NCBI GenBank assembly: GCA_035491715.1
Contig: DATJKH010000029.1
Span: 23,555-87,554 of the forward strand
DNA length: 64,000 nucleotides
Direction of reading: 5' to 3'
Source: Vicinamibacterales bacterium
Lineage (GTDB): Bacteria > Acidobacteriota > Vicinamibacteria > Vicinamibacterales > 2-12-FULL-66-21
Of this stretch, positions 1 to 48,779 are shown in pieces. Under the pieces are notes generated by a model that did no database searches, was not told where the DNA came from, and saw only the letters and a program-made list of their open reading frames with translations. Made by a program: the position numbers and the translations under genes. Each line of letters starts with the position of its first letter. Within the stretch, counting starts at the first letter, position 1.

Positions 1-1580
1 GCAACATGATGTGCGATCCCTGCTTCATGGACGCCAATCAGGTCGGCTTCGTGCACGAGCTGTCGTGGGAGGACATCAAGACGCTGCTCGACAATGCGAT
101 TTCGATCAAGCCGAAGCGCCAGATGTCGGTGCAGTTCTCGGGCGGCGAACCGACGATGTCGCCGTACTTCCTGGATGCGGTGCGCTACTCGAAGAAAGTT
201 GGCTACAGCAGTGTCCAGGCGGCGACCAACGGGATCGAGTTCGCAAAGAGCCCGGAGTTCGCCCGTGCGGCAGCAGAAGCAGGTCTGCGCTACGCGTACC
301 TCCAGTTCGATGGCATCGGCAACGCCGCCAACGCCCATCGCCTGGTCGGCAACCTCTTCGACGTCAAGCTGCGCGCGATCGAGAACCTTCACGCCGCCGG
401 CGTCGACATCGTCCCGGTCACGACCATCGTCAACGGCGTCAACAACGAGCAGGTCGGACGAATTATCCAGTTCGCCCTCGATAACCCGAGGAAGATCAAT
501 TTCCTCTCTTTCCAGCCGGTTTCGTTCACTGGACGCGACGAGGAAGTTACCGACGAGCGTCGAGCCGCGCAGCGCTACACGCTCTCGCACCTCGCTCACG
601 ACGTGAAGAGCCAGGTGGGCATTGGTGAACCGGTCCGCGATTGGTTCCCGATCTCGTTCATGGGAACGTTCACCGACTGGGCCGACCTCGTGCACGGTCC
701 CAGTGCGGAGTGGGGCAACCTCGCCTGCGGCTGCCACCCGAACTGCGGCATCGGCATGGCGGTCATGATCGACAAGGAAACGAAGGAAGCCGTGCCGGTG
801 ACGGCGTTCCTGAAGGCCGGACAGGTGGCAGAGGACCTGAAGAAGGTCAACGACGCGGGACGGGGCAAGTTCCTCTCATCGCTGGGAATGGCGCTGGTGC
901 TGATGAAGAACTACGATCCGTTCGCGGCGCCCACGCACTTCAAGCTGATGGATCTGCTGAAGAAGTTCGACAAGACGTTCGGCGCGACCGGCCGCGATTA
1001 CGGCAAGGTGGGAGCGGACCGCACGAAGGCGGATATCGATCGGCGCCGTGCGGATCGCTGGAACTTCCTGTTCATTGCCGGCATGTGGTTCCAGGATCTG
1101 TTCAACTACGACTTCCGCCGTACCGAGCGCTGCATCATTCCGTATGCGACGCAGGAAGGGGAGATCTCTTTCTGCGCCTACAACACCGGAATCGGCTGGC
1201 GCAACATCATCGAGAAGATGCATATGACGGCCACCCTCACCAAGTGGTATGAGGAGCACGGCCGTCACGAGATCTTCGCCGGCGGCAAGAGCGTCGCGCT
1301 GAACAGCAAGGAACACAGCCTTGTGCTCGACGCGGCAGCGGTCGCGGCCGGCAAGCAGCAGGACCTGGACGTTGCCGGCATTGCCAAGACGGCACGCGAG
1401 GAAAAGTTGCGCGCGAAGGCCGAGGCGAAGAAGAAGGCAGAAGAGAACGAGCGCATGGCTGCGTTGTATCGGCAGCACGTTCTCAAGGAATCGCCTGAAG
1501 AGCCGGTCATTCAAATCCAGGGGCTCGGCTCGAAGAAGAAGGAGCCGGTGCAGGAAGTCCTGCACAAGGATCAGCAGTAA
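1..1580 (+). CDS. radical SAM enzyme of the MJ0619 / GDGT-MAS (Tes) tetraether-lipid-synthase-like family; the 5' end lies outside the window
   Basis: The frame is open to the window edge. Nt 3-26 read N-M-M-C-D-P-C-F, and the preceding partial codon ..GC is compatible with Cys, so this is the tail of a CxxxCxxC radical-SAM motif. The blocks QFSGGEPT, ATNGIEF, YLQFDGIG, NFLSFQPVSFTGR and the C-terminal FQDLFNYDF..RCIIPYAT..ISFCAYNT match my recollection of M. jannaschii MJ0619-type proteins. The C-terminus is a Lys/Glu-rich tail. Confidence 0.75.
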   Translation, partial: NMMCDPCFMDANQVGFVHELSWEDIKTLLDNAISIKPKRQMSVQFSGGEPTMSPYFLDAVRYSKKVGYSSVQAATNGIEFAKSPEFARAAAEAGLRYAYLQFDGIGNAANAHRLVGNLFDVKLRAIENLHAAGVDIVPVTTIVNGVNNEQVGRIIQFALDNPRKINFLSFQPVSFTGRDEEVTDERRAAQRYTLSHLAHDVKSQVGIGEPVRDWFPISFMGTFTDWADLVHGPSAEWGNLACGCHPNCGIGMAVMIDKETKEAVPVTAFLKAGQVAEDLKKVNDAGRGKFLSSLGMALVLMKNYDPFAAPTHFKLMDLLKKFDKTFGATGRDYGKVGADRTKADIDRRRADRWNFLFIAGMWFQDLFNYDFRRTERCIIPYATQEGEISFCAYNTGIGWRNIIEKMHMTATLTKWYEEHGRHEIFAGGKSVALNSKEHSLVLDAAAVAAGKQQDLDVAGIAKTAREEKLRAKAEAKKKAEENERMAALYRQHVLKESPEEPVIQIQGLGSKKKEPVQEVLHKDQQ

Positions 1581-1620
1581 GACGCCTTCCGCCTTTAGGC
1601 GGAAGATCCGGTTAAATTTA

Positions 1621-1652
1621 GGGCGCGGTCTTCAGACCGCGCCCTTCTTTTT
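1621..1652 (+). terminator. intrinsic terminator hairpin that is also a copy of the REP-like palindrome
   Basis: Perfect 10-bp stem GGGCGCGGTC / GACCGCGCCC with a TTCA loop, followed by TTCTTTTT. A second hairpin, CTTCCGCC-TTTA-GGCGGAAG, lies at about 1587..1606. The next ATG (1653) abuts the T-run. Confidence 0.6.
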
Positions 1653-2390
1653 ATGCCTACTCTTCAGGTTTCCAGCCTCCGCAAGTCCTACGGCGACCGC
1701 CTCGCGGTCGACGACCTGACATTTTCAACGGCTCCGGGTGAGATCGTCGGATTGCTGGGTCCGAACGGCGCTGGGAAAACGACGACGATCAATATGATTC
1801 TCGGCGTGCTCGAACCGAGCGGCGGACGGATTCACATCGAAGGCCGCAGCCTTGCCACCGATCGTCGAGAAGCGCTTCAGCGGACGAATTTCGCGGCCGT
1901 TTACGCCCCACTGCCCGGCAACTTGACCGTCGAGCAGAACCTGAAATTCTTCGGCATGCTCTACGGGGTGGCTTCCCTGAAGAACCGAATCGATACGGTG
2001 CTGGAGCAGTTCGATCTCCTCGGGTTCCGTCGCACGAAATGTGGTGTGTTGTCTTCCGGAGAGCAAACGCGGGTGTGCCTGGCAAAGGCCATGCTGAACG
2101 CGCCGAGGCTTCTACTTCTGGACGAACCGACCGCCTCGCTTGATCCGGCGACGGCGAGAGAAGTTCGCGCGAAGATCCGCGGCCTTGCGACCGACCGGCA
2201 GGTCAGCGTGCTGTGGACGTCGCACAACATGTATGAAGTCGAGTCGGTATGCGATCGCGTGCTGTTCCTGTCGCGTGGACGAGTGCTGCTCGAGGGGAAC
2301 CCGAAGACCCTTCCCGATGAACATGGGAAAGGGACGCTCGAAGAACTCTTCATTGCGGTTGCGCGCGAGCCGCTTTCACTCGAGTCCTGA
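1653..2390 (+). CDS. ABC transporter ATP-binding protein (ABC-2 exporter type)
   Basis: Walker A GPNGAGKTT, signature LSSGEQ, Walker B LLLLDEPT. Confidence 0.9.
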   Translation: MPTLQVSSLRKSYGDRLAVDDLTFSTAPGEIVGLLGPNGAGKTTTINMILGVLEPSGGRIHIEGRSLATDRREALQRTNFAAVYAPLPGNLTVEQNLKFFGMLYGVASLKNRIDTVLEQFDLLGFRRTKCGVLSSGEQTRVCLAKAMLNAPRLLLLDEPTASLDPATAREVRAKIRGLATDRQVSVLWTSHNMYEVESVCDRVLFLSRGRVLLEGNPKTLPDEHGKGTLEELFIAVAREPLSLES

Positions 2391-2395
2391 CAACC

Positions 2396-3199
2396 GTGCG
2401 AATCACCCCAGTCCGGGCGATCGTCCTGCGGCAGTTGTACCTCCTCCGTGGCGGACCGACGCGAGTCTTGTCGCTCGTCATCTGGGTCGCCATCGACATC
2501 ATCCTGTGGGGCTTCATGACGAAGTACCTCAACACGGTGACGGCGGCGGGTTTTGATTTCGTGCCGGTGTTGCTCGGCGCCGTACTGATGTGGGACTTTT
2601 TCACTCGCGTGATGTTTGGCGTGACGATGGCGTTCTTTGAGGACGTCTGGTCGAGGAACTTCCTCAACATCTTTGGTTCACCTGTATCCATCAATGAGTA
2701 CCTGACGGGCCTCGTGTCGTCGAGCATCATCACGAGCACGTTGGGTCTCGTCGTGATGCTGATCCTGGCGGTGGCGTTGTTTGGCCTGTCGTTTATCTTG
2801 TACGGTGGGCTGCTTGTTCCGTTTCTGATGGTGCTGTTCCTCTTCGGCATTGCTCTCGGCATCGTCGGCTGTTCGTTCGTGTTGCGGTTTGGGCCGTCTG
2901 CCGAGTGGTTCGTCTGGCCGATTCCGGCAATCCTGTCACCGTTCGCCGGAGTGTTCTATCCAATCTCGACCATGCCGACATGGATTCAGTGGATCGCACA
3001 CCTTCTACCGCCCATGTATGTCTTCGAGGGAATGCGTGCGATTGTGACCGGCGGGGCGATGTCGATGAAATCGCTGACGATGGGCGGAGTGCTCGCCGTG
3101 TTGTACGTCCTTGCGGCCTCTTTGGTATTTACACGGGTGTACCGCAATGCAGTGCGAACGGGGTTGATCGCGAGGTACAGCGCGGAAACGATTACATAA
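2396..3199 (+). CDS. ABC-2 family transporter permease
   Basis: A polytopic hydrophobic protein that starts 6 nt after the ATPase stop. The layout and length are typical of an ABC-2 membrane domain. Confidence 0.8.
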   Translation: MRITPVRAIVLRQLYLLRGGPTRVLSLVIWVAIDIILWGFMTKYLNTVTAAGFDFVPVLLGAVLMWDFFTRVMFGVTMAFFEDVWSRNFLNIFGSPVSINEYLTGLVSSSIITSTLGLVVMLILAVALFGLSFILYGGLLVPFLMVLFLFGIALGIVGCSFVLRFGPSAEWFVWPIPAILSPFAGVFYPISTMPTWIQWIAHLLPPMYVFEGMRAIVTGGAMSMKSLTMGGVLAVLYVLAASLVFTRVYRNAVRTGLIARYSAETIT

Positions 3200-3345
3200 C
3201 GGCCATTCACCGTCGCGCTGAGACGAACCCGCGTTTAACGCGAAGGTACGAAGAATCGAGTGCTTCGACTCTTCGCGCCTTCGACGCAAGCCGTCGGCAC
3301 GTGTAGGACGCCTGTAGTAGCGTGTTTGGCGTAAGATACGCGGTC

Positions 3346-5559
3346 ATGCAGCAAGTCGTCTCACCTGCTCGACTCATCACGATTGCCGGGCTGCTCGTTC
3401 TGTGTGCCGCCGCTTCAGCCGTCGCGCAGGCGCCCCCGACCAAACTCAAAACGAAGTGGGCCGCCGACGTGTCGCCGACACGTGTGCTTCCCGAATATCC
3501 CCGTCCGGAAATGGTTCGGACAGCCTGGCAGAACCTCAACGGCGAGTGGGATTACGCCATTGCGGACGCCACTGCCCAGAAGCCGGCAGCCTTTGCCGGA
3601 AAGATCCTTGTTCCATTCCCCGTGCAATCGCAATTGAGTGGCGTCGCCGCCGCCGTGACAGACCAACAGCGGCTCTGGTATCGGCGCACGTTTCGCGCCG
3701 GCACCGTTCCGCGCGGGTCGAGAGTACTGCTGCATTTCGGCGCCGTCGACTGGGAGTCGCACGTGTTCGTCAACGGTAAGGAAGTCGGCCGTCATAGCGG
3801 CGGATACGATCCGTTTTCGTTCGACATTACGTCGGCACTCAAGGCATCTGGCGATCAGGAACTCATCGTCAGCGTCTGGGATCCGACCGACAAGGGACCG
3901 CAGCCGCGTGGTAAGCAGGTTCTCGAGCCGAAGAGCATTTGGTACACAGCGGTGACAGGCATCTGGCAGACCGTATGGTTCGAGACCGTGCCCGATGCGT
4001 ACATCACCGGTCTGGATATCGGTACGGATGCCAACGCCGGGACGATCAGCGTGACCGTGCGATCGAACAGCGGCGCGGCCGGGAACGCGCGGGTGACTGT
4101 GCGCGATGGATCGCGAACCGTCGGCGAGGCAACCGGGGGCGTGGGCCAGCCTATCGTCGTTCGCGTTGCGCAACCGAAATTGTGGTCGCCGGATCAGCCA
4201 TTCCTCTACGACCTGCGAGTGGCTCTCGGTGGCGATGCCGTTCAGAGCTATGCCGGTATCCGCACGATTTCCGTGCAACGTGACCAGGCGGGTGTGAATC
4301 GCCTGTTTCTCAATGGTAAGGCGCTGTTTCAATATGGGTTGCTCGATCAGGGATGGTGGCCTGACGGTCTCTACACTGCGCCAACAGACGAGGCGCTCGC
4401 GTCGGACATCGAAACGACCAAGCGTCTCGGTTTCAACATGATTCGCAAGCACGTGAAGGTCGAACCGGCGCGGTGGTACTACCACGCGGATCGATTAGGC
4501 GTGCTCGTGTGGCAGGACATGCCCAGCGGCGGCGACAAGACGCCCGAAAACAAAGACATGTTTGCCGGCGAACTCGAACATGTGATTGACGCCCTGGACA
4601 ATCATCCGTCAATCGTCATGTGGGTCCCCTTCAACGAAGGCTGGGGGCAGCACGAGACGGAACAGTACGTTCAGTGGATTAAGCAGCGCGACCCCAGTCG
4701 CCTGGTGAACAATTCGAGCGGCTGGACCGACAAAGGCGTCGGCGACGTCTCCGATGTCCATTCATATCCGGCGCCGATCCGCCCACCGCTCGAAGATAAA
4801 CGCGCGGCGGTGCTCGGCGAGTTCGGCGGGCTTGGTCTTCCGCTCGAGGGGCACACCTGGATCGAAAAAGGAAACTGGGGATATCGGACCTACAAAACGC
4901 AGGAAGAACTCGGGCAGGCGTATCGCGATCTCATGCATCAGTTGAGAATCCTTGTCGGCGAAGGTCTTTCCGCCGCTATTTATACGCAGACAACGGACGT
5001 GGAGATCGAAGTGAACGGGATGCTCACCTACGACCGCGCGGTTGTGAAGCTTCCGGCCGACGCAAAGGAATTGTCCAACCGGCTATCGACGCCGCCGTCG
5101 GTGCGTGAAGTCGTTGCGACATCGGAAAAGTCGCCACAGTCGTGGCGCTACACAACCAACACACCTGTTGAAAACTGGTTTTCGACGAGTTTCGACGACC
5201 GCGTGTGGACGCAGAGCAACGGCGGCTTCGGCCGGCCCAACCCAAACAATAAGGCAAGCGTCGGAACTCCCTGGCAAACATCCGATATATGGTTGCGAAG
5301 GTCGTTCGATCTTCCCGCCGGCGCGCTGACCAATCCGCATCTGCGTATCTATCACGACGACGACGCCGAGGTGTATTTGAACGGTCAGCGGATCGCGACC
5401 TTGCCGGGTGCGGTCAATGGCTATTCATACGTGCCGCTCGATGCCACGGCAAAGGCGCTGTTGAAAGCCGGGGCCTCAAACATGCTTGCCATTCACGTCA
5501 AACAGGTTCGTGGCGGGCAGTTTGCGGATGCAGGATTGGTTGACGTCGTTGAAAAGTGA
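3346..5559 (+). CDS. glycoside hydrolase family 2 (beta-galactosidase/beta-glucuronidase-like), secreted
   Basis: The GH2 sugar-binding block HFGAVDWESHVFVNGKEVGRHSGGYDPFSFDIT is present. The TIM-barrel blocks FNMIRKH and NHPSIVMWVPFNEGWG are also present. Starting at the in-frame ATG 3346 gives a signal peptide ending AVAQA. The ORF track start at 3322 is a GTG. Confidence 0.8.
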   Translation: MQQVVSPARLITIAGLLVLCAAASAVAQAPPTKLKTKWAADVSPTRVLPEYPRPEMVRTAWQNLNGEWDYAIADATAQKPAAFAGKILVPFPVQSQLSGVAAAVTDQQRLWYRRTFRAGTVPRGSRVLLHFGAVDWESHVFVNGKEVGRHSGGYDPFSFDITSALKASGDQELIVSVWDPTDKGPQPRGKQVLEPKSIWYTAVTGIWQTVWFETVPDAYITGLDIGTDANAGTISVTVRSNSGAAGNARVTVRDGSRTVGEATGGVGQPIVVRVAQPKLWSPDQPFLYDLRVALGGDAVQSYAGIRTISVQRDQAGVNRLFLNGKALFQYGLLDQGWWPDGLYTAPTDEALASDIETTKRLGFNMIRKHVKVEPARWYYHADRLGVLVWQDMPSGGDKTPENKDMFAGELEHVIDALDNHPSIVMWVPFNEGWGQHETEQYVQWIKQRDPSRLVNNSSGWTDKGVGDVSDVHSYPAPIRPPLEDKRAAVLGEFGGLGLPLEGHTWIEKGNWGYRTYKTQEELGQAYRDLMHQLRILVGEGLSAAIYTQTTDVEIEVNGMLTYDRAVVKLPADAKELSNRLSTPPSVREVVATSEKSPQSWRYTTNTPVENWFSTSFDDRVWTQSNGGFGRPNPNNKASVGTPWQTSDIWLRRSFDLPAGALTNPHLRIYHDDDAEVYLNGQRIATLPGAVNGYSYVPLDATAKALLKAGASNMLAIHVKQVRGGQFADAGLVDVVEK

Positions 5560-5574
5560 ATTCGAGTATTCACG

Positions 5575-6708
5575 ATGCGCTTTTCGATTGCGATCATGTT
5601 GCTGATGACGATGGGCGCGTACGACGCACAGTCCGGTGGCACTCCACAGCGCGGTGTCACCCGCACGCCGTTTGGTAAGACACGCGATGGCAAAACAGTT
5701 GAGATCTACACGCTGACAAACGCACATGGCGTCCAGATGCGGGTCATCACCTACGGCGGCATTATCACCAGTTTGAAGCTGCCCGATCGTTCCGGGCGTC
5801 TCGGCGACATCGTCCTCGGGTTCGACACCCTTGATGGATATCTCAAGGACCCTCCGTACTTCGGGGCAGTCATCGGGCGCTACGGCAATCGCATTGCGAA
5901 AGGGCAGTTCACGCTCGACGGGAAGACGTTCAAGCTGGCGACCAACAACGGACCGAATCACCTGCACGGCGGGGTCAAGGGGTTCGACAAAGTGGTGTGG
6001 AACGCTGTTCCGGGCACCGATGCGAACGGCGTCAGCGTGGCGCTGTCGCGCACCAGCCCCGACGGGGAAGAGGGCTACCCGGGCAATCTCCAGGCAACGG
6101 TGCGCTACACATTGACCGACAAGAACGAACTTGCCATCGACTACCGCGCGACCGCCGACAAGGCAACGCCAGTGAATCTCACGCAGCACAGCTACTTCAA
6201 TCTCGCTGACGATTCGAGCGACATTCTCGGTCACGAGTTGACGATCCGTGCAGGGCGCTACACCCCCGTGGACGCCACGCTCATTCCAACCGGCGAAATG
6301 GCCGCGGTCGAAGGAACGCCATTCGATTTCAGGAAAGCGACGACGATTGGCGCTCGTATTGCCACCGAGAACGCGCAGTTGAAGAACGGCGGTGGATACG
6401 ATCACAACTGGGTGCTCGATCGTAGCGGTGGAGGCCTGCAGCCAGCCGCGCGGCTCGTTGATCCGAAGAGCGGGCGGACACTCGAAGTGGCAACGACGGA
6501 GCCGGGTCTCCAGTTCTATTCCGGAAACTTCCTCGACGGATCGATTAGCGGCAAGGGCGGCCGTGTCTATCGCCATCGTACCGGCCTATCTCTGGAGACG
6601 CAGCACTATCCGGACTCGCCGAATCACTCGAACTTCCCGTCGACGATCCTGAAACCAGGACAGACCTATTCTTCGCAGACCGTATTTGCGTTCGGTGTGC
6701 AGAAGTAG
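5575..6708 (+). CDS. galM: aldose 1-epimerase (galactose mutarotase)
   Basis: Motifs GRYGNRIA, NNGPNHLHGG, HSYFNL and a GalM-like C-terminus. The N-terminus is hydrophobic. Confidence 0.9.
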   Translation: MRFSIAIMLLMTMGAYDAQSGGTPQRGVTRTPFGKTRDGKTVEIYTLTNAHGVQMRVITYGGIITSLKLPDRSGRLGDIVLGFDTLDGYLKDPPYFGAVIGRYGNRIAKGQFTLDGKTFKLATNNGPNHLHGGVKGFDKVVWNAVPGTDANGVSVALSRTSPDGEEGYPGNLQATVRYTLTDKNELAIDYRATADKATPVNLTQHSYFNLADDSSDILGHELTIRAGRYTPVDATLIPTGEMAAVEGTPFDFRKATTIGARIATENAQLKNGGGYDHNWVLDRSGGGLQPAARLVDPKSGRTLEVATTEPGLQFYSGNFLDGSISGKGGRVYRHRTGLSLETQHYPDSPNHSNFPSTILKPGQTYSSQTVFAFGVQK

Positions 6709-6716
6709 CGAGCACT

Positions 6717-8411
6717 ATGAAGCGTGATGTTGCGATCGCGACGATTCTTGTCTCCGTCGCGCTGGCCTCGTGGTCCGGCCTGGCGCAGAACGACACATCA
6801 AAGATCTCCATCCGCGTCGATGCAACGAAGCGGCTCGGGCCGATGACCACCATGTGGGCGTTCTTCGGTCACGATGAGCCCAATTACACCTACATGCCGG
6901 ACGGGCGGAAGCTCCTGTCAGAACTCGCGGCGCTGAGCCCGGTGCCGGTGAATGTTCGAGTCCACAATCTATTAACGACCGGGGATGGAACACCCGCTCT
7001 GAAATGGGGATCGACCAACGCGTACACCGAGGATGCGCAGGGGCGCCCGGTGTACGACTGGACGATTGTCGATCGCATCTTTGATACCTACGTCGAGCGC
7101 AAGATGAAGCCGCTTGTGCAGATTGGCTTCATGCCGAAAGCGCTTTCAACGAAGCCCGAGCCTTACCAGCACAACTGGATGCCCGGCGTTCAGTACAGCC
7201 AGATCTACACAGGGTGGGCCTATCCTCCAGCCGATTATTCGAAGTGGCGAGAATTGGTCTATCAGTGGGCGCGGCACACGGTAGAGCGATACGGCGTCAA
7301 TGAGGTCAAGACCTGGTATTGGGAAGTGTGGAACGAGCCCGACATCGGGTACTGGCAGGGCACGCCGCAGGAATTCCAGAAGCTGTATGACTTCGCAGCC
7401 GACGGCTTGAAGCGGGCACTGCCAGAGGCCAGGATTGGTGGTCCCGAAGTTACGGGGCCAAATGGCGCGCGAACACAGCAGATATTGAAGGATTTCATCG
7501 AGCACTGCCTGCGAGGCACGAACAATGCGACCGGCCAGCGCGGCGCGCCACTTGATTTCGTGACCTTTCACGCCAAAGGCGCTCCACGCGTTGTCGACGG
7601 TCACGTCCGAATGGGCATCAGCAATCAGTTGCGTGCGATCTCGAACGGGTTCCAGATCGTCGCGTCCTATCCTGAGCTTCGAACGACGCCGATTGTGATC
7701 GGCGAGTCGGACCCGGAAGGATGCGCCGCGTGCTCGGTTCGAACCAATCCGGAGAACGCGTATCGCAACGGCACCATGTATTCCAGTTATACCGCGGCGC
7801 AGATCGCGCGCACGTTCGAGTTGGCCGATCTTCATAAGGTCAACCTGCTTGGATCCTTGACGTGGGCATTCGAATTCGAAGGACAACCGATGTTTGCCGG
7901 ATTTCGCGATCTCGCCACGAACGGCATCGACAAGCCGGTGCTCAACGTCTTTCGCATGCTGGGAAAGATGCGCGGCGACAGGGTTGTGGTGACCAGCACC
8001 AGCGCTGCGAATACCGAGACGATCAGAGATTCCGGTGTCCGCGAAGCCGCCGACGTTTATGCGTTGGCCAGCCGAACGGATCGCTCGATGGAGATCCTCG
8101 TGTGGAACTATCACGACGACGATGTGCCGGCGCCGGCTGTCCGGATTGCCCTGACCGCGGAGGGGCTGTCAGGGCGTCAAGCAACGGTCACGGAATACAG
8201 GGTCGACGATCGTCACAGCAACTCGTACGAAGCGTGGAAACAGATGGGATCGCCGCAGACGCTCACGTCTGAGCAACGAAGTGCGCTCGAGAAGGCGGGT
8301 CAACTGCAGACGATGGGATCGCCGGCGCGCAGGAACATTGAGGGCGGTCGTCTCACACTCGACGTGTCGCTGCCGAGACAAGGTGTCGCCCTGTTTACCG
8401 TAACCTTTTAG
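6717..8411 (+). CDS. glycoside hydrolase family 39-like (beta-xylosidase / iduronidase-type), secreted
   Basis: Signal peptide ends ..SGLAQ. The acid/base block WYWEVWNEPD and a candidate nucleophile block VIGESD are present, and the length fits GH39. Confidence 0.7.
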   Translation: MKRDVAIATILVSVALASWSGLAQNDTSKISIRVDATKRLGPMTTMWAFFGHDEPNYTYMPDGRKLLSELAALSPVPVNVRVHNLLTTGDGTPALKWGSTNAYTEDAQGRPVYDWTIVDRIFDTYVERKMKPLVQIGFMPKALSTKPEPYQHNWMPGVQYSQIYTGWAYPPADYSKWRELVYQWARHTVERYGVNEVKTWYWEVWNEPDIGYWQGTPQEFQKLYDFAADGLKRALPEARIGGPEVTGPNGARTQQILKDFIEHCLRGTNNATGQRGAPLDFVTFHAKGAPRVVDGHVRMGISNQLRAISNGFQIVASYPELRTTPIVIGESDPEGCAACSVRTNPENAYRNGTMYSSYTAAQIARTFELADLHKVNLLGSLTWAFEFEGQPMFAGFRDLATNGIDKPVLNVFRMLGKMRGDRVVVTSTSAANTETIRDSGVREAADVYALASRTDRSMEILVWNYHDDDVPAPAVRIALTAEGLSGRQATVTEYRVDDRHSNSYEAWKQMGSPQTLTSEQRSALEKAGQLQTMGSPARRNIEGGRLTLDVSLPRQGVALFTVTF

Positions 8412-8431: not shown

Positions 8432-10861
8432 TTACTCGATCCGCAACGCAATAATCGGATCGATCCTCCCCGCGCGCAGCGCCGGCCACACGCACGCCTG
8501 AAGACCCGCGGCGAGAAGCACCACGGCCACGAGGGCGAACGCGATTGGGTCAAACGGCGACACGTTCCAAACCTGCCGCGCCAACAGACGCGCGCCAATC
8601 AGGCTCCCGGCCAGACCGATGGCCATGCCGATGAGCAGCAGGCGCGAACCGCGCGCAAGGATCATCGCAACGATTGATTTTGAACTCGCTCCGAGGGCCA
8701 TCCGTACGCCAATCTCCTGACGCTGCTGGGCGACCGCCGTCGCCATCACCCCGTAGACACCGATGACGGCGAGCACCAGTCCGATGAGCGCAAAAGCGGA
8801 AAGCAGGATCAGATTGAAACGCGGTGTCGAGAAGGCATCTTCCTTGAGCACAGTGTCCAGGGTCTTGACGTTCGTCACAGGTTGACTGCCATCGATTGCA
8901 TAGATCTGCGCCATGATTGGGCGCGTCAACGATGTTGGTTCAAGAGTCGTTCGCACGATGAGGACGTTCGAGGCACCGGTCAAAGAGTAAGGGAAGTAGA
9001 TTTCCGGCCTGGTTGGATTCGCGAGTCCGTCATTGGCGATGTCCTGGACGACGCCTACGACCTCGAAGGCATCGCTGGCGAGCTCAAATGGTCGCTCTTT
9101 GAGGCGTGGAAGATGGATGATCTGCCCGAGTGGGGGTCGTCCTTCGAAGCGCGCGCGGACGAACTGCTCGTTCACCACCGCAACCGCGCGCCGGCTCGTC
9201 ACGTCGGTTTGATCGATTGCCCGCCCGGACGCGAGGCGAATACCGAGAGCAGGCGTATAACCCGCATCGATCTGATGGACGACGACGGGGTCGGTGCTTG
9301 CCGCCGTGCCAGCGACGTCCGCCGTTGTCGACATGTTGCCGAGCGGGTGAAGCCACGTGTTCACTCCGGCCTCGGCGACACCGGGCACGATTCTCACTCT
9401 CGACAGCAGATCTTCAAAAAATGCAACCCGTCGAGTGGCGTCCGGGTATCGCTGCGGCGGCAGCGGAATGCGCATCGTCAAAAAGCGCTCCGGCTGATAT
9501 CCGAGATCAACGCGCGCCATTGCGACAAACGTGCGAATGAGCAGACTCGATCCCGCCAGCAGCATGAGCGAGAGCGCGACCTCGACGACGACGAGCGACT
9601 TTCGAAGCCGCGCTTGTCCCGAACTTCCTGACAGCGATCGACTGACTTCGCGCATCGAGGCCGCAAGATCCCGCCGTGAGCTGTGCAGCGCGGGCGCGAG
9701 GCCGCAGATGATGCTCGTCATCGCGCAAATGGCCAGCGTGAAGAAGAGCACCGATCGATTCAACGCAATCTCGGCCTCATCCGGGATCGTGTTTGGCGGC
9801 ACGATCGCGAGGATTGCTGGAAGTCCGGCATACGCGAGAGCGGATCCGATGGCGCCGGCAATCAGCGCAAGCAGCAGGCTTTCAGTGAGGAGCTGCCGCA
9901 CGAGGCGGCTGCGGCTTGCGCCGAGGGCAACGCGCACGCCCATTTCTTTCTGCCGCGCGGCCGCCTTCGACAAGAGCAGATTCGAGACGTTAGCGCAGGC
10001 GATGAGCAGGAGGAACGCGACAGCACCAAAGAGCACCCAGATGTCGCCGGTGATTCCGCTTGGGAATGTCTCAGTGAAGGGCAGCAGACTGACGCGAAAC
10101 TGTTGCGGAAACTCGTTCGGCTGCCGTTTTTTGAGATCCTCGATGATTGGTGCCAGGTCTGCCTCGGCCCGCGCGCCGGTAATTCCAGGTTTGAGCCGCC
10201 CGAGCAGGTGAACGTTGCGTACGCCTTCCACGATCTGTCCGCGCTGAAATCGTGTCGGGATGTAGACGTCCGCGCCGCGCCACATGAATCGCTTCGGCAT
10301 CACTCCAATGACGGTTCGAACGGTGTCGTTCAAACGCAGTTGCCGTCCAAGCACTCCTCGGTCGCCGCCGAACTGCCGCTGCCAGAAGCGATAGCCCAAC
10401 ACAACCACCGGGTCCGCACCCTCCTTCGCATCGTCCGCGCCTGGCGTTCGTCCGAGCAGCGGCGGCACACCCATGACGTCGAAGGTGTTGAATGTGCCGT
10501 GGTTCCCGCGCAGCCGTTGCGGGTCGCCCTCACCGGTCCACAGCACGTCACTGATGGTTGACGCGATTGTTCCTTCGAAAATCGTGTTGCGTTCTGCGAT
10601 CTCGAGGAACTGGTCGACCGAGTAGCCGAGTCGCCCGCCCCGTCCAGCGGGGTTGTAGACGCGCACGCTCATCAACTCGCCGACGTTCTTGTATGGGAAT
10701 GGATCGAGGACGACAGCATGGAGGACGCTGTAGATGGCCGTCGTCGCCATGATTCCAGTGGCCAGCGACAGGATGGCGAGCGCAGTAAAGCCGGGACTCT
10801 TCAGAAGGCTCCGTGTGCCGTACTGAATATCCCGTGCGAACGTTTCCACCCAGGTTCCCAT
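8432..10861 (-). CDS. ADOP-family duplicated MacB/FtsX-like permease (orphan, no adjacent ATPase)
   Basis: The N-terminus ..DIQYGTRSLLKSPGFTALAILSLATGI is typical. There are two MacB-periplasmic plus FtsX-like 4-TM halves, and the protein is 809 aa. Confidence 0.85.
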   Translation of the reverse strand: MGTWVETFARDIQYGTRSLLKSPGFTALAILSLATGIMATTAIYSVLHAVVLDPFPYKNVGELMSVRVYNPAGRGGRLGYSVDQFLEIAERNTIFEGTIASTISDVLWTGEGDPQRLRGNHGTFNTFDVMGVPPLLGRTPGADDAKEGADPVVVLGYRFWQRQFGGDRGVLGRQLRLNDTVRTVIGVMPKRFMWRGADVYIPTRFQRGQIVEGVRNVHLLGRLKPGITGARAEADLAPIIEDLKKRQPNEFPQQFRVSLLPFTETFPSGITGDIWVLFGAVAFLLLIACANVSNLLLSKAAARQKEMGVRVALGASRSRLVRQLLTESLLLALIAGAIGSALAYAGLPAILAIVPPNTIPDEAEIALNRSVLFFTLAICAMTSIICGLAPALHSSRRDLAASMREVSRSLSGSSGQARLRKSLVVVEVALSLMLLAGSSLLIRTFVAMARVDLGYQPERFLTMRIPLPPQRYPDATRRVAFFEDLLSRVRIVPGVAEAGVNTWLHPLGNMSTTADVAGTAASTDPVVVHQIDAGYTPALGIRLASGRAIDQTDVTSRRAVAVVNEQFVRARFEGRPPLGQIIHLPRLKERPFELASDAFEVVGVVQDIANDGLANPTRPEIYFPYSLTGASNVLIVRTTLEPTSLTRPIMAQIYAIDGSQPVTNVKTLDTVLKEDAFSTPRFNLILLSAFALIGLVLAVIGVYGVMATAVAQQRQEIGVRMALGASSKSIVAMILARGSRLLLIGMAIGLAGSLIGARLLARQVWNVSPFDPIAFALVAVVLLAAGLQACVWPALRAGRIDPIIALRIE

Positions 10862-10904
10862 GGAATGCTCCTCGTCACTGACAGCGCCGGTCGGGCTTGG
10901 TCGT

Positions 10905-10929
10905 GTAGGGCGCGGTCTTGGATCGCGTC
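10905..10929. repeat. REP-like palindromic element, degenerate copy
   Basis: GTAGGGCGCGGTCTTGGATCGCGTC compared with the family consensus TAGGGCGCGGTCTTcaGACCGCGcc. A partial TGTAGGACGGTCTCGC lies about 55 nt downstream. Confidence 0.5.
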
Positions 10930-11021
10930 TCCGTGCTTAGACGATCGCAGATGGGCCCGGGTTTGTAGGACGGTCTCGCTTCTCACATAAGATATCAGGT
11001 CGTGAAACGGTCCCCAGACGC

Positions 11022-11831
11022 ATGAAAACGGAACATGCCGTGGTCCTTGCGCGTGGGCTGGGCACGCGAATGCGCGCGCCGGACTCGTCAGCCGAATTGA
11101 CGCCAGAACAGCAACGAGCTGCCGACACCGGGATGAAGACGATGATGCCGGTGAACGGCCGCCCTTTTCTCGATTTCATCCTCGGTTCGTTGGCGGATGC
11201 GGATATCCGGTTCGTCGCCCTCGTGGTCGCGCCCGACCATGCGGCGCTGCGACGCTACTACGAAGCGGATGGGCGTCCGAGTCGTATCCGGTTGGACTTT
11301 GTCGTGCAGCCGGAGCCGCTCGGCACGGCTAATGCGGTGCTCGTTACCGAGCCGTGGGTCGACGGGAATCCATTTCTCGCAATGAATGCCGACAATCTGT
11401 ATCCGGCGTTGGCGCTCAGGCAGCTCACGTCACTGCAGGAACCTGGACTTCCTGCATTCGACGCCGCAGACCTTGTAGAGTCGAGCAACATTCCGCCTGA
11501 ACGAATTCGGTCGTTTGCGATTCTTCACGTCGACGAGCAGGGGTATCTGGTTGGGATTGTCGAAAAACCAGGAGACGTGCTGCCACCTGAAGGTGGAAGC
11601 CACATAAGCATGAATTGCTGGCGGTTCGATCGACGGATCTTCCAGGCCTGTCGCGACGTTCCGAGATCACAACGCGGAGAGTTCGAGTTGCCCGAAGCCG
11701 TAGGGCTGGCGGTACGGCAAGGCGTCAGATTCAAAACGTTCGTTGCCCGCGGGCCCGTCCTGGATCTCTCCACGCGCGCGGACGCCGCCGATGTTGCGCG
11801 GCGGCTCGCCTCGACAATCCCTCATCCATGA
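11022..11831 (+). CDS. sugar-1-phosphate nucleotidyltransferase (NTP-transferase fold)
   Basis: The N-terminal VVLARGLGTRMR corresponds to the G-x-G-T-R-(x)n signature. LGTANAV and the overall layout resemble small sugar nucleotidylyltransferases. Confidence 0.7.
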   Translation: MKTEHAVVLARGLGTRMRAPDSSAELTPEQQRAADTGMKTMMPVNGRPFLDFILGSLADADIRFVALVVAPDHAALRRYYEADGRPSRIRLDFVVQPEPLGTANAVLVTEPWVDGNPFLAMNADNLYPALALRQLTSLQEPGLPAFDAADLVESSNIPPERIRSFAILHVDEQGYLVGIVEKPGDVLPPEGGSHISMNCWRFDRRIFQACRDVPRSQRGEFELPEAVGLAVRQGVRFKTFVARGPVLDLSTRADAADVARRLASTIPHP

Positions 11832-13201
11832 CTGGCGCAGCGCTCGCCGCGTCGCTTGTTGCTCGTGGTCTTGGCGTCGACGAGCGACCGGCGAAACAAA
11901 CACTCTTCGATCTTGTTCTCACGCATCTCGATCATCTGGATCACAGCGTAAGTTCCAATTCGACCGGTTCAGATACATCAGCTTCCGTCCACGCATGGTG
12001 GATTCCCGGGCGGCTCGAGGTGTTTGGCACGCACACTGATTACGCGGGAGGCCACACCCTGGTGTGCGCCGTGCCGCGCGGCTTTGCGATCGTCGCCCGT
12101 CGCCGGATCGACAACGTTGTCCATGTCGTCGACGCTCTTCGCCAACAGGACGTGTCTCTCATCGCGGAGGACGTTCGCGACGGAGCCCATCAAGGATGGC
12201 GGCGCTACGTGGCGGCCGTCTGCCGTCGGCTGACGAAAAACTTTCCGGGTGCGCGGCTCGGTGCCGATATCGTACTCGCAAGCGATCTGCCGAGAGCATC
12301 GGGGATGAGCAGTTCGAGTGCACTGGTGATCGGCGTGGCGACGGCACTGGCGGCAGCCGGATCGCTCAGGAGCCGGGACGAGTGGCAGCGCAACATTCAT
12401 GGCGCGCAGGACGAAGCCGGCTATTACGCATGCATCGAGAATGGCCTGTCGTTTGGCTCTCTGCATGGTGACGCCGGAGTCGGCACGCACGGTGGCAGCG
12501 AGGATCACGCTGCGATTCTTACCGGAACCGCCGGACATCTTTCTGCCTTCACGTTCGTGCCGATGCGCCCGCGGGAGGTTGTTCCAATGCCCCCTTCCTG
12601 GCGCTTCGTCTTGACGCCGAGCGGCGTCGCCGCCCAGAAGGCCGGCGTTGCTCGCGACGCCTACAATCGTCTCGCCGACGGCACGCATTTCCTGCTCGAA
12701 CTCTGGAATCAAGAATCGGAGCAGCAGGCGATTTCGCTCCGAGCCGCGCTGAAGATGGACGGCGCGGACACGCTTGACTGGAATCGCGTCGAGCAGCTAC
12801 GACAGTTGATCGGCCGGTCGAAGGCGGCTAACCGGGAGGAAGAACTGATGGAGCGGCTTCTCCATTTCGTGCGCGAGGATTTTCGCACGATCGAGAGTAT
12901 CGATGCGTTCCGGCAGAGCGACCAGCCTCGGATAGGTCAACTCGCGGATGACTCGCAGTCTGATGCCGACGTCTTCCTGGGCAATCAGATCCCCGAAACC
13001 ATTGCGCTGGCTGCCAGCGCGCGCAAGCTCGGTGCATTTGCTGCGCGCAGCTTCGGCGCCGGATTTGGAGGCAGCGTGTGGGCGCTGGTCGAGGCAGACC
13101 GAGCGCAGGAGTTCGCGCGCAGGTGGAGTGCTCAGGCGTTTGTCGCGACGCCCGGACCACCGTTGATTGAACTCACTGATTATCCCGGTGCGAGTGAGTG
13201 A
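11828..13201 (+). CDS. GHMP-family sugar kinase (galactokinase-like)
   Basis: The galactokinase-type block PGRLEVFGTHTDYAGG and the GHMP ATP motif PRASGMSSSSAL are present. I chose the in-frame ATG that overlaps the upstream stop (ATGA) rather than the ORF-track start at 11615. Confidence 0.75.
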   Translation: MTGAALAASLVARGLGVDERPAKQTLFDLVLTHLDHLDHSVSSNSTGSDTSASVHAWWIPGRLEVFGTHTDYAGGHTLVCAVPRGFAIVARRRIDNVVHVVDALRQQDVSLIAEDVRDGAHQGWRRYVAAVCRRLTKNFPGARLGADIVLASDLPRASGMSSSSALVIGVATALAAAGSLRSRDEWQRNIHGAQDEAGYYACIENGLSFGSLHGDAGVGTHGGSEDHAAILTGTAGHLSAFTFVPMRPREVVPMPPSWRFVLTPSGVAAQKAGVARDAYNRLADGTHFLLELWNQESEQQAISLRAALKMDGADTLDWNRVEQLRQLIGRSKAANREEELMERLLHFVREDFRTIESIDAFRQSDQPRIGQLADDSQSDADVFLGNQIPETIALAASARKLGAFAARSFGAGFGGSVWALVEADRAQEFARRWSAQAFVATPGPPLIELTDYPGASE

Positions 13202-48370: not shown

Positions 48371-48775
48371 GTGCGCTTTCAACTCAATTTCAAATCGGGA
48401 AAGCCGGTATATCTGCAGCTGGTCGACCAGGTGAAGTCGGCGGCCGCGTCCGGCGTCGTTCAGGCTGGCGATCCGTTGCCGTCGATTCGGCCTTTGGCCG
48501 AAGAGCTTCGCGTGAACCGCAACACGGTGGCGAAGGCCTATGCCGAGCTGGAGAACCAGCGCGTCATCGAAACCGTCGCCGGCAAGGGCTGTTTCGTTCG
48601 TGCGAGCAGTTCCCCTTTTAGAAAAGACGTTCGTCTGAAACTCGTTGCGGAAACGATCGACGATGCGGTGGTGCAGGCCCATCACCTGCAGGTCGGGAAA
48701 GCAGAGTTCCTCCGGCTGGCGGAGGAGCGGTTCGATGCATTCGAAGACAAAAGAGCCCGTGCGGTACACGAGTGA
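48371..48775 (+). CDS. GntR-family transcriptional regulator, YtrA-like short subfamily
   Basis: The winged-helix block LPSIRPLAEELRVNRNTVAKAYAELE is present, followed by a short C-terminal region. The protein is 134 aa. Confidence 0.85.
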   Translation: MRFQLNFKSGKPVYLQLVDQVKSAAASGVVQAGDPLPSIRPLAEELRVNRNTVAKAYAELENQRVIETVAGKGCFVRASSSPFRKDVRLKLVAETIDDAVVQAHHLQVGKAEFLRLAEERFDAFEDKRARAVHE

Positions 48776-48779
48776 CGCT

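What the first reader, a model, noticed from the sequence alone, without database searches (positions are those of the whole stretch)
1..3199. Bacterial copy of the archaeal tetraether-lipid-synthase (MJ0619 / GDGT-MAS / Tes) radical SAM family, cut by the window edge and followed by an ABC-2 exporter
Seen in sequence:
- The ORF is open to nt 1, and its first residues (C)NMMCDPCF are the end of a CxxxCxxC cluster motif. The ATG at 6 is therefore not the true start.
- The conserved blocks QFSGGEPT, ATNGIEF, YLQFDGIG and INFLSFQPVSFTGR are present.
- So is the C-terminal block FQDLFNYDF..RCIIPYAT..ISFCAYNT.
- These follow the order I remember for M. jannaschii MJ0619.

Established knowledge: that family was shown in 2022 to perform the tail-to-tail C-C coupling that makes membrane-spanning GDGT and macrocyclic archaeol lipids in archaea.

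Inference:
- In an Acidobacteria-like genome, such a homologue is a prime candidate for synthesis of branched GDGTs or other membrane-spanning lipids. To my knowledge this has not been demonstrated biochemically.
- This copy also has a roughly 110-aa Lys/Glu-rich tail.
- After two hairpins it is followed by an ABC-2 ATPase/permease pair, which could be functionally linked (lipid or precursor export) or simply adjacent.
Basis: partly seen in the sequence, partly recalled or inferred. Interest (0 to 1): 0.65.

Follow-up and report, generated by a model that had tools for sequence, protein, structure and literature searches.

The report
Acidobacterial Tes-like radical SAM lipid enzyme
The window starts inside a gene for a soil-bacterium relative of the archaeal enzyme that joins two lipid tails into membrane-spanning lipids; it is a real but already-published candidate for making the bacterial lipids used as climate proxies, and the neighbouring transporter genes look unrelated.

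Summary
Window nt 1-1580 encodes the last 525 of 697 residues of a radical SAM protein. Six 99.9%-identical metagenome contigs and a 100%-identical protein from a Vicinamibacterales genome assembled from a metagenome supplied the missing 172 residues.

The only close solved relative is the archaeal tetraether synthase GDGT-MAS/Tes (MJ0619):
- Sequence match E = 9e-62.
- Predicted-structure match TM 0.87.
- The radical SAM cluster motif, ten of eleven SAM/5'-dA pocket residues checked, the three C-terminal cluster cysteines, Met439 and Tyr459 are conserved.

It is not a strict Tes orthologue:
- It scores 309 bits against NCBI's Tes model, whose cut-off is 450.
- It lacks the cysteines of the N-terminal auxiliary [4Fe-4S] cluster.
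- It falls in a separate sister clade with extra N- and C-terminal extensions.

This clade is 75-89% identical across the acidobacterial classes known to make iso-diabolic acid.

The ABC-2 pair is not a conserved neighbour (1 of 80 related loci, not adjacent there). A strong terminator hairpin separates it from the gene.

The idea that bacterial Tes homologues make brGDGT-type lipids has been in print since 2022 and is still untested biochemically. This is therefore a known candidate and of modest novelty.

The parts
1..1580 (+). 3' part (last two bases of codon 172 through codon 697, plus the TAA stop) of a 697-aa Tes-like radical SAM gene. The true start lies 514 nt upstream of the window.
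   Evidence: PDB 7tol E = 8.8e-62 for the full-length protein. Foldseek 7tom E = 6e-37, TM 0.87.
1..23 (+). Remainder of the radical SAM CX3CX2C motif: C172 (nt 1-2, partial codon), C176 (nt 12-14), C179 (nt 21-23). F180, the equivalent of MJ Phe106, follows.
   Evidence: These Cys are 100% conserved in 79 acidobacterial orthologues.
141..155 (+). GGEPT SAM-binding motif (G219-T223). G220 is the equivalent of MJ0619 Gly145.
   Evidence: Residue map. Role of Gly145 from Lloyd 2022.
510..536 (+). FQPVSFTGR loop (F342-R350). Q343, S346, T348 and R350 are the equivalents of MJ0619 Gln268, Ser271, Thr273 and Arg275, which bind 5'-dA and close the active site.
726..746 (+). CGCHPNC (C414, C416, C420). 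C420 is the equivalent of MJ0619 Cys338, a candidate ligand of the C-terminal [4Fe-4S] cluster. C414 is a clade-B extra. C416 aligns with Ser in MJ0619 but is Cys in most clade-A members too.
1083..1175 (+). C-terminal cluster and active-site block: M533 (= Met439, nt 1083-1085), C549 (= Cys455, nt 1131-1133), Y553 (= Tyr459, nt 1143-1145), C563 (= Cys470, nt 1173-1175).
   Evidence: Met439 and Tyr459 are strictly conserved in 1000 archaeal homologues (Lloyd 2022). This block is 95-97% conserved in 79 orthologues.
1254..1577 (+). C-terminal extension absent from MJ0619 (residues 590-697). Residues 590-600 are a conserved HGRHEIFAGG linker. The rest is a Lys/Glu/Ala-rich tail with a predicted helix at 636-665 and a low-confidence end at 668-697.
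1586..1605 (+). Hairpin 1: CTTCCGCC-TTTA-GGCGGAAG, in the 3' untranslated region.
1620..1652 (+). Hairpin 2: intrinsic-terminator-like element (11-bp stem, 9 GC pairs, loop TTCA, then TCTTTTT). It most likely ends the Tes-like transcript.
   Evidence: Found only in same-species contigs.
1653..2390 (+). ABC transporter ATPase (DrrA-like, generic). Adjacent to the Tes-like gene, with no sign of a functional link.
2396..3199 (+). ABC-2 type permease. Adjacent to the Tes-like gene, with no sign of a functional link.

Best explanation
**What it is.** Nt 1-1580 is the 3' three-quarters of a stand-alone gene from a Vicinamibacterales bacterium (Acidobacteriota). It encodes a 697-aa radical SAM enzyme of the Tes/GDGT-MAS fold. 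The protein belongs to a sister clade, here called clade B, that has lost the N-terminal auxiliary [4Fe-4S] cluster. Clade B has gained an N-terminal amphipathic helix of about 60 aa and a charged C-terminal tail of about 100 aa.

**Shown.**
- Homology and fold.
- Conservation of the radical SAM cluster, the SAM/5'-dA pocket, the rubredoxin-like Cys3His site, the three Cys plus Met of the C-terminal cluster, and the catalytic-pocket Tyr.

**Inferred mechanism.**
- Like GDGT-MAS, the enzyme reductively cleaves SAM.
- The 5'-dA radical abstracts H from the terminal methyl of a lipid tail.
- That radical is parked as a C-S adduct on the C-terminal [4Fe-4S] cluster.
- A second SAM activates a second tail, which attacks the adduct to form a tail-to-tail C-C bond.

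**Inferred substrate and product.**
- The likely substrate in Acidobacteria is a phospholipid with iso-C15 acyl or alkyl chains.
- The product would then be an iso-diabolic-acid-based membrane-spanning lipid, which is the brGDGT carbon skeleton.
- The protein has no transmembrane segment, so it would act peripherally on the cytoplasmic face of the membrane. The N-terminal amphipathic helix may anchor it there.

**Neighbouring genes.** The ABC-2 transporter downstream is a separate, unrelated transcription unit.
For: **Homology and fold**
- Full-length match to 7tol, E = 8.8e-62, over residues 93-588 against chain residues 35-512.
- AF2 model: pLDDT 83.8, pTM 0.84.
- Foldseek: 7tom/7tol at E = 6e-37 and TM 0.87. 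The next hit is MoaA at 6e-9.

**Residue-by-residue conservation against MJ0619 (roles from Lloyd 2022)**
- Radical SAM cluster: C98/C102/C105.
- SAM/5'-dA pocket: F106, G145, Y195, D199, V236, T238, Q268, S271, T273 and R275 are identical. R210 aligns with Leu286 in the pairwise map; Arg285 lies one residue away and takes that column in alignment A1.
- C-terminal cluster and pocket: C338, M439, C455, Y459 and C470 are identical.
- Rubredoxin-like site: C65xxC68...C111xxH114 is present.

**Conservation among orthologues**
- All 11 Cys are 100% conserved in 79 orthologues. The core is 83-97% conserved.
- At least 598 species genomes encode a relative. The best 80 are 75-89% identical.
- Those 80 come from Vicinamibacterales (subdivision SD6), Blastocatellia (SD4), Bryobacterales/Solibacter (SD3) and Terriglobales (SD1), including the cultured Acidipila rosea.

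**Match to lipid phenotype**
- SD1, SD3, SD4 and SD6 are exactly the subdivisions reported to make iso-diabolic acid.
- iso-DA is 27-49% of fatty acids in some Terriglobales. A Terracidiphilus MAG carries a clade-B protein.
- Acidobacteria lack the alternative bacterial coupling enzyme Mss.
- E. aggregans makes iso-DA and brGDGT. Its single Tes homologue was reported at 32% identity and 4e-61. That similarity level matches clade B (inference).

**Localisation**
- No transmembrane segment, and an amphipathic N-terminus.
Against: - There is no biochemical or genetic test of any bacterial Tes homologue.
- The score is below the curated Tes equivalog cut-off: 308.7 against 450 bits.
- One of the four metallocofactor sites is missing.
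- No lipid-biosynthesis genes lie in the neighbourhood or elsewhere in the 64-kb window.
- Sahonero-Canavesi et al. found Tes homologues, under stringent criteria, in only 3 of 14 iso-DA-producing acidobacterial genomes. They argued for an alternative pathway.
- I could not test presence or absence of clade B in the lipid-typed strains or in the non-producing subdivisions.
- Radical SAM sister clades often differ in substrate.
Confidence: 0.58

Rival explanations
1. This is a Tes-fold radical SAM enzyme that performs a different radical reaction on a hydrophobic substrate. Examples would be another C-C or C-S cross-link, or a modification of hopanoids, quinones or other lipids, rather than tail-to-tail coupling of iso-C15 chains.
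For: - It lies in a sister clade to characterised Tes.
- It scores below the equivalog cut-off.
- It has lost the [4Fe-4S]N cluster, gained a clade-specific extra Cys (C414) and gained terminal extensions.
- Tes homologues were reported in only 3 of 14 iso-DA producers under stringent criteria.
- Lloyd et al. note bacterial homologues in organisms not known to make biphytanyl chains.
Against: - Every residue implicated in Tes chemistry is retained. This includes Met439, Tyr459 and the C-terminal cluster Cys that hold the radical intermediate.
- The phyletic spread matches iso-DA producers.
- No other candidate coupling enzyme is known in aerobic Acidobacteria.
Confidence: 0.3
2. The Tes-like gene and the downstream ABC-2 ATPase and permease form one functional module. 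The enzyme makes a membrane-spanning lipid or precursor and the transporter flips or exports it.
For: - Same strand, with a gap of only 72 nt.
- The ATG of the ATPase sits directly after the hairpins, leaving no room for a promoter of its own.
- The arrangement is identical in six same-species contigs.
Against: - A permease orthologue occurs in only 1 of 80 related loci (L007). There it lies 3.5 kb downstream, with an aldose epimerase gene in between.
- No conserved neighbour of any kind is seen across Acidobacteriota.
- A strong terminator-like hairpin lies between the genes.
- The transporter is a generic DrrAB-like ABC-2 pair scoring below all specific cut-offs.
- A second GntR plus ABC plus ABC-2 set lies at about 48.4-51.1 kb in the same window.
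Confidence: 0.04
3. The protein is what older annotations call it: a 7,8-dihydro-6-hydroxymethylpterin dimethyltransferase (the original MJ0619 assignment). Or it is a TrsS-type radical SAM (seleno)protein.
For: - Many JGI records carry the pterin methyltransferase name.
- The second-best NCBIfam hit is TrsS, at 207 bits.
Against: - Lloyd et al. could not corroborate the pterin activity. They showed a long hydrophobic lipid pocket in MJ0619.
- The TrsS score is far below its cut-off of 490 and covers only the radical SAM core (profile positions 13-295 of 441).
- The full-length fold match is to GDGT-MAS.
Confidence: 0.02

Closest known systems
Archaeal tetraether synthase Tes / GDGT-MAS (M. 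jannaschii MJ0619, PDB 7TOL/7TOM; M. acetivorans MA_1486; NCBIfam NF045702)
   Same: - Same overall fold, TM 0.87.
- Same domain order: rubredoxin-like Zn-ribbon, radical SAM core, then C-terminal cluster domain.
- About 31-34% identity over about 470 columns.
- Identical radical SAM motif and 10 of 11 SAM/5'-dA contacts checked, the 3 Cys + Met439 of the C-terminal cluster, and Tyr459.
   Different: - No CX3CX2C + His for the N-terminal auxiliary [4Fe-4S] cluster; H, S and K stand in its place.
- The rubredoxin-like spacer is 42 residues instead of 20.
- Extra N-terminal helix of about 60 aa and extra C-terminal tail of about 100 aa.
- Extra conserved Cys414; Cys416 replaces a Ser of MJ0619 but is Cys in most clade-A members.
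- Scores 309 bits against a cut-off of 450.
- Falls in a sister clade.
- The host is an aerobic-type soil bacterium with ester-linked fatty-acid lipids rather than isoprenoid ethers.
Bacterial 'Tes homologues' of Acidobacteria reported by Zeng et al. 2022, Halamka et al. 2022 and Chen et al. 2025 (E. aggregans, S. usitatus, K. versatilis)
   Same: - Same phylum and the same proposed role in brGDGT or iso-diabolic tetraester synthesis.
- The E. aggregans homologue (32% identity, 4e-61 to MA_1486) is at the same similarity level as this protein.
- MAGs labelled Solibacter and Korobacteraceae carry clade-B copies.
   Different: - The top S. usitatus and K. versatilis homologues (40-42% identity, e-139 to e-149) are at the similarity level of the archaeal-type clade A, not this clade.
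- The published work does not, as far as I could find, separate the two clades or note the missing cluster.
Mss, the bacterial membrane-spanning lipid synthase (Thermotoga maritima / Thermoanaerobacter ethanolicus; Sahonero-Canavesi et al. 2022)
   Same: A radical SAM enzyme shown, by anaerobic expression in E. coli, to couple fatty-acid tails into diabolic acids. It carries out the reaction proposed here.
   Different: - Only remotely related to Tes.
- Found in anaerobes, and reported absent from the acidobacterial genomes examined.
- Not tested against this protein, because no Mss sequence or model was available in the tools.

Membership tests
Tes / GDGT-MAS, strict (NCBIfam NF045702 equivalog) | Whole-protein score at or above the curated cut-off of 450 bits | tested here: not met
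   The full-length P0001 scores 308.7 bits and the window fragment 251.1 bits. Clade-A representatives score 447-593 bits and clade-B representatives 220-414 bits.
Tes / GDGT-MAS, strict | Radical SAM CX3CX2C cluster and SAM/5'-dA binding residues | tested here: met
   C172/C176/C179 are present. F180, G220, Y271, D275, V311, T313, Q343, S346, T348 and R350 are identical to the MJ0619 residues. Pfam Radical_SAM E = 7e-16.
Tes / GDGT-MAS, strict | N-terminal rubredoxin-like mononuclear Fe site (Cys3His: CX2C...CX2H) | tested here: met
   C65xxC68 and C111xxH114 are present, with all three Cys 100% conserved in 79 orthologues and C65, C68 and H114 invariant (C111 in at least 90%) across both clades in alignment A1. 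The spacer is 42 residues rather than 20. Pfam PF23545 is recorded on the full-length protein. This part lies outside the window.
Tes / GDGT-MAS, strict | N-terminal auxiliary [4Fe-4S] cluster ligated by C73, C77, C80 and a His | tested here: not met
   The aligned segment is ...EKLHNHGSSTIKYG..., with no Cys. C77 aligns with H151, C80 with S154, and C73 with a gap. The model has low pLDDT at 141-160. Every clade-B member has only one CX3CX2C motif.
Tes / GDGT-MAS, strict | C-terminal auxiliary [4Fe-4S] cluster (3 Cys + labile Met439) and conserved Tyr459 next to the lipid terminus | tested here: met
   C420, C549, C563, M533 and Y553 align with C338, C455, C470, M439 and Y459. The Cys are 100% conserved in 79 orthologues. 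Which three MJ0619 Cys are the actual ligands was not stated in the accessible text, so the ligand assignment is inferred.
Tes / GDGT-MAS, strict | Overall four-domain fold with hydrophobic lipid pockets | tested here: met
   Foldseek gives 7tom at E = 6e-37, TM (target) 0.87, over 558 columns. Pocket hydrophobicity was not measured.
Tes / GDGT-MAS, strict | Catalyses tail-to-tail Csp3-Csp3 coupling of lipid chains | not testable with these tools
   This needs an enzyme assay, heterologous expression or a knockout. No such data for bacterial homologues appear in the literature searched.
Bacterial Tes homologues as defined by Zeng et al. 2022 (BLASTP against MA_1486: e < 1e-50, identity > 20%, length > 400 aa) | Similarity threshold to an archaeal Tes | tested here: inconclusive
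   Against MJ0619 the full-length protein gives E = 8.8e-62, 34% identity and 697 aa, which would pass. MA_1486 itself was not available to test.
TrsS radical SAM (seleno)protein (NF045646) | Score at or above 490 bits over the full model | tested here: not met
   207.1 bits, covering only profile positions 13-295 of 441.
   The permease is found in 1 of 80 loci and is not adjacent there. A terminator lies between the genes.

The most novel reading that the evidence does not exclude
Clade B is the Tes-like sister clade that lacks the surface-exposed N-terminal [4Fe-4S] cluster and carries an amphipathic N-terminal helix. On this reading it is the long-sought iso-diabolic acid (brGDGT skeleton) synthase of aerobic soil Acidobacteria in subdivisions 1, 3, 4 and 6. 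Loss of the exposed cluster would be an adaptation to oxygen or to a different electron donor. The archaeal-type clade A found in a few taxa such as Solibacter and Koribacter would then be a separate acquisition. If this is true, clade-B genes rather than 'Tes homologues' in general would be the correct marker for the main soil sources of brGDGT proxies.
Probability: 0.4. Interest if true: 0.75.

Novelty: new member of a known kind. Interest (0 to 1): 0.42.

Why it matters
Branched GDGTs are among the most widely used continental palaeotemperature and pH proxies. The enzyme that builds their membrane-spanning C30 skeleton in aerobic Acidobacteria is still unproven.
- Mss is missing from these bacteria.
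- Tes homologues were reported in only a minority of producers when stringent thresholds were used.

Showing that this highly conserved, phylum-wide Tes-like clade is the coupling enzyme would give a gene marker for proxy source organisms. It would also show how an oxygen-sensitive archaeal radical enzyme was remodelled for aerobes.

The window itself adds little beyond a truncated copy of a protein already in public databases. The hypothesis is already published. What this analysis adds is the clade distinction and the negative result on the ABC-2 link.

Tried and rejected
1. **ABC-2 link.** tblastn of all neighbours against 80 related loci, plus de novo clustering of flanking ORFs, found no conserved neighbour. 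Rejected.
2. **Neighbour-based functional clues in other Acidobacteria.** The commonest flanking genes are MutY-like, DUF4440, QueG, TPR, GatC, a sigma-70 factor and MoaA, which are housekeeping genes. Three more distant clade-B loci show LpxD or LpxC nearby. One shows a B12-radical-SAM/GT2/ACP/AMP-ligase cluster. This is suggestive but based on only three loci, so I did not rely on it.
3. **Sigma-54 promoter upstream of the gene.** No TGGCAC-N5-TTGC-like site was seen in L001, L089 or L090.
4. **Intergenic hairpins as a small RNA.** There is a sub-threshold Rfam hit to ncS025, 37.1 bits against a gathering score of 46. The element is confined to same-species contigs. I treat it as a terminator.
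5. **Naming cultured hosts.** Cluster-member look-up returned almost no organism names. The supplements of Sahonero-Canavesi 2022 are not held, and those of Zeng 2022 had no usable table. The phyletic test against lipid-typed strains therefore could not be done.
6. **Second copy or lipid cluster in the window.** None was found.
7. **Pterin methyltransferase and TrsS annotations.** Rejected.

Full report
**Observation.**
- Frame 3 of the + strand is open from nt 3 to the TAA at 1578-1580.
- The exact sequence of the downstream ABC ATPase was used to find contigs that encode it. This recovered six metagenome contigs that are 99.9% identical to the window over 12 kb, with window nt 1 = L001 nt 8349.
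- In those contigs the gene starts 514 nt upstream of the window and encodes 697 aa.
- A database protein, P0001, is 100% identical over the 525 residues. NCBI names it 'MAG TPA: radical SAM protein [Vicinamibacterales bacterium]'. It reads ...LTNRCNMMCDPCF, so the window cuts the gene inside the CX3CX2C motif and the ATG at nt 6 is internal.
- The two hairpins (1586-1605 and 1620-1645 plus a T-run), the ABC ATPase (1653-2390) and the ABC-2 permease (2396-3199) are all as described.

**What it is.**
- The only solved structure with significant sequence similarity to the fragment is GDGT-MAS/Tes from M. jannaschii: E = 5e-48 for the fragment and 8.8e-62 for the full-length protein, covering chain residues 35-512 of 526.
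- An AlphaFold2 model of the full-length protein (pLDDT 83.8, pTM 0.84) matches 7TOM/7TOL at E = 6e-37 with target-normalised TM 0.87. The next best fold, MoaA, is at 6e-9.
- I mapped the residues that Lloyd et al. 2022 describe onto this protein.
  - The radical SAM Cys triad is conserved.
  - Ten of the eleven 5'-dA/methionine-pocket residues checked are identical: Phe106, Gly145, Tyr195, Asp199, Val236, Thr238, Gln268, Ser271, Thr273 and Arg275. Arg210 aligns with Leu286 in the pairwise map; Arg285 is one residue away and occupies that column in the multiple alignment.
  - The rubredoxin-like Cys3His site is conserved.
  - Cys338, Cys455 and Cys470 are conserved, as are the labile cluster ligand Met439 and the strictly conserved Tyr459.
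- The machinery for SAM cleavage and for holding a lipid radical on the C-terminal cluster is therefore intact.

**What it is not.**
- The full-length protein scores 308.7 bits on NCBI's Tes equivalog model, whose cut-off is 450.
- The CX3CX2C + His motif that ligates the surface-exposed N-terminal auxiliary [4Fe-4S] cluster of GDGT-MAS is replaced by ...EKLHNHGSSTIKYG..., which has no cysteine. The model is poorly defined there.
- An exhaustive search of 1.84 billion cluster representatives found 621 relatives at E <= 1e-30. Full-length representatives fall into two groups:

| Feature | Clade A | Clade B |
|---|---|---|
| Contains | MJ0619 | the window protein |
| CX3CX2C motifs | two (one exception, P0263, has one) | one |
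| Score on the Tes model | 447-593 bits | 220-414 bits |
| N-terminal extension | absent | present in most members |

- The acidobacterial 697-aa subclade also has an extra conserved Cys414 (CGCHPNC; Cys416 is Cys in most clade-A members as well, though Ser in MJ0619) and a charged tail of about 100 aa. The tail has a predicted helix at 636-665.
- No transmembrane segment is predicted. Residues 1-25 are strongly amphipathic.

**Distribution.**
- At least 598 species-level genomes encode a relative.
- The best 80 are full-length and 75-89% identical, which is unusually high across classes.
- They come from Vicinamibacterales, Blastocatellia, Bryobacterales (including a Solibacter-labelled MAG) and Terriglobales, including the cultured Acidipila rosea DSM 103428.
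- All 11 cysteines are invariant in 79 orthologues.
- These classes correspond to subdivisions 6, 4, 3 and 1. Those are exactly the subdivisions reported to contain iso-diabolic acid.
- iso-DA can make up 27-49% of fatty acids in Terriglobales such as Occallatibacter and Terracidiphilus. A Terracidiphilus MAG carries a clade-B protein.
- I could not test the reverse prediction, absence from non-producing subdivisions.

**Genomic context.**
- The ABC-2 pair is not a conserved partner. Among 80 related loci only the nearest species (L007) has an orthologous permease. There it lies 3.5 kb downstream, beyond an aldose epimerase gene.
- Clustering of all flanking ORFs found no neighbour shared by more than 11 of about 80 loci. 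The commonest neighbours are housekeeping genes.
- Within Vicinamibacterales, an MsrP/MsrQ-like pair immediately upstream, outside the window, is the more persistent neighbour. It occurs in about 11 loci.
- An 11-bp, GC-rich terminator-like hairpin followed by a T-run sits between the two genes.
- The rest of the window holds glycoside hydrolases, peptidases, amino-acid metabolism genes, a second GntR/ABC/ABC-2 set and similar genes. There is no lipid cluster.
- The gene behaves as a stand-alone core gene.

**Mechanism (inferred).** By analogy with GDGT-MAS:
1. The enzyme should bind two glycerolipids.
2. It cleaves SAM at the radical SAM cluster.
3. It abstracts H from a terminal methyl.
4. 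It stores the radical as a C-S bond on the C-terminal [4Fe-4S] cluster.
5. It uses a second SAM to activate the second tail, which attacks to form the C-C bond.

GDGT-MAS binds ester-linked bacterial phosphatidic acid in its pocket. The ends of iso-branched fatty acids and phytanyl chains are structurally identical. Iso-C15 phospholipids are therefore plausible substrates, and iso-diabolic tetraesters the plausible products. The missing surface cluster suggests a different electron-entry route. The N-terminal amphipathic helix suggests peripheral membrane binding. Both points are inference.

**Comparison with the literature.**
- Zeng et al. 2022 reported 456 bacterial Tes homologues and proposed a brGDGT role. 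They named:
  - E. aggregans, with one homologue at 32% identity and 4e-61;
  - K. versatilis, at 42% and e-149;
  - S. usitatus, at 40% and e-139.
- Halamka et al. 2022 built a pathway around the S. usitatus homologues.
- Chen et al. 2025, as cited, correlated Tes alone with tetraesters and Tes plus Ger with brGDGTs.
- Sahonero-Canavesi et al. 2022 demonstrated Mss in anaerobes. They found no mss in Acidobacteria, and Tes homologues in only 3 of 14 iso-DA producers at e <= 1e-50 and >= 30% identity. Clade-B proteins sit right at that identity threshold: 28-34% to MJ0619, depending on the alignment. This may explain the low count (inference).
- A review dated August 2026 still describes bacterial Tes homologues as only bioinformatically detected.

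**Verdict.**
- The feature is real and correctly recognised.
- It is a new member of a known, uncharacterised group of acidobacterial Tes-like enzymes.
- It works like Tes in all testable respects.
- It fails strict Tes membership on two tested criteria: the curated score and the N-terminal cluster.
- The ABC-2 association is coincidental.
- Interest is moderate. The open question, the source and biosynthesis of brGDGTs, is important. This locus adds no new handle beyond the clade A/B distinction worked out here.

Noticed in passing
window 1574-1651: The two-hairpin intergenic element gives a sub-threshold, full-length Rfam match to Burkholderia sRNA ncS025 (37.1 bits, gathering score 46, E = 4e-4). 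It also gives a weak match to mmgR/suhB. It folds at -42.5 kcal/mol (z = -6.15). It is found only in same-species contigs, so it is probably just a 3'-UTR hairpin plus a terminator.
   Followed up: partly
window 1645-1655: The ATG of the ABC ATPase (1653) lies directly in the terminator's T-tract (TCTTTTTATG). There is no visible Shine-Dalgarno sequence and no room for a promoter. Expression would need read-through, leaderless translation or a promoter inside the upstream gene.
   Followed up: no
L001:6041-7641 (just upstream of the window); also L007, L009-L016, L018, L027: An MsrP-like (Oxidored_molyb) and MsrQ-like (Ferric_reduct) gene pair sits immediately upstream of the Tes-like gene (about 190 nt in L001). 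It occurs on the same strand in about 11 Vicinamibacterales-type loci. It is a more persistent neighbour than the ABC-2 pair, and its significance is unknown.
   Followed up: partly
L088:10021-11097; L089:1008-1949 and 10756-14738; L090:2413-3339: In more distant clade-B loci the gene lies next to lipid A genes: LpxD directly downstream, or LpxC about 5-6 kb upstream. Two of the three loci (L089, L090) have a PAS-domain sensor histidine kinase and a sigma-54 response regulator directly upstream. One locus has a B12-binding radical SAM + GT2 + ACP + AMP-ligase cluster downstream. This is a possible envelope-lipid context, based on only three loci.
   Followed up: partly
L007-L086: The protein is 75-89% identical between acidobacterial classes (Vicinamibacteria, Blastocatellia, Terriglobia). 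That is unusually high for a 700-aa enzyme. It implies very strong constraint or recent spread within the phylum.
   Followed up: no
L023, L051, L083: MAGs labelled Betaproteobacteria, Bifidobacteriaceae and 'proteobacterium' carry copies 77-81% identical to the acidobacterial protein. Mis-binned acidobacterial contigs are the most likely explanation.
   Followed up: no
P0146; P0002: P0146 is a clade-B member whose radical SAM CX3CX2C motif is replaced by a Cys-free segment, so it may be a pseudo-enzyme. P0002 (711 aa) contains a duplicated C-terminal segment, which is probably an assembly artefact.
   Followed up: no
window 3322-8411: A GH2 - aldose 1-epimerase - GH39 gene run follows the ABC-2 pair on the same strand. 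It looks like a carbohydrate-utilisation cluster. The ABC-2 pair is at least as likely to belong with these genes as with the radical SAM gene.
   Followed up: no
window about 48371-51139: A second set of GntR regulator + ABC ATPase + ABC-2-type permease lies in the same window (from L087 annotation). ABC-2 systems are therefore common in this genome.
   Followed up: no
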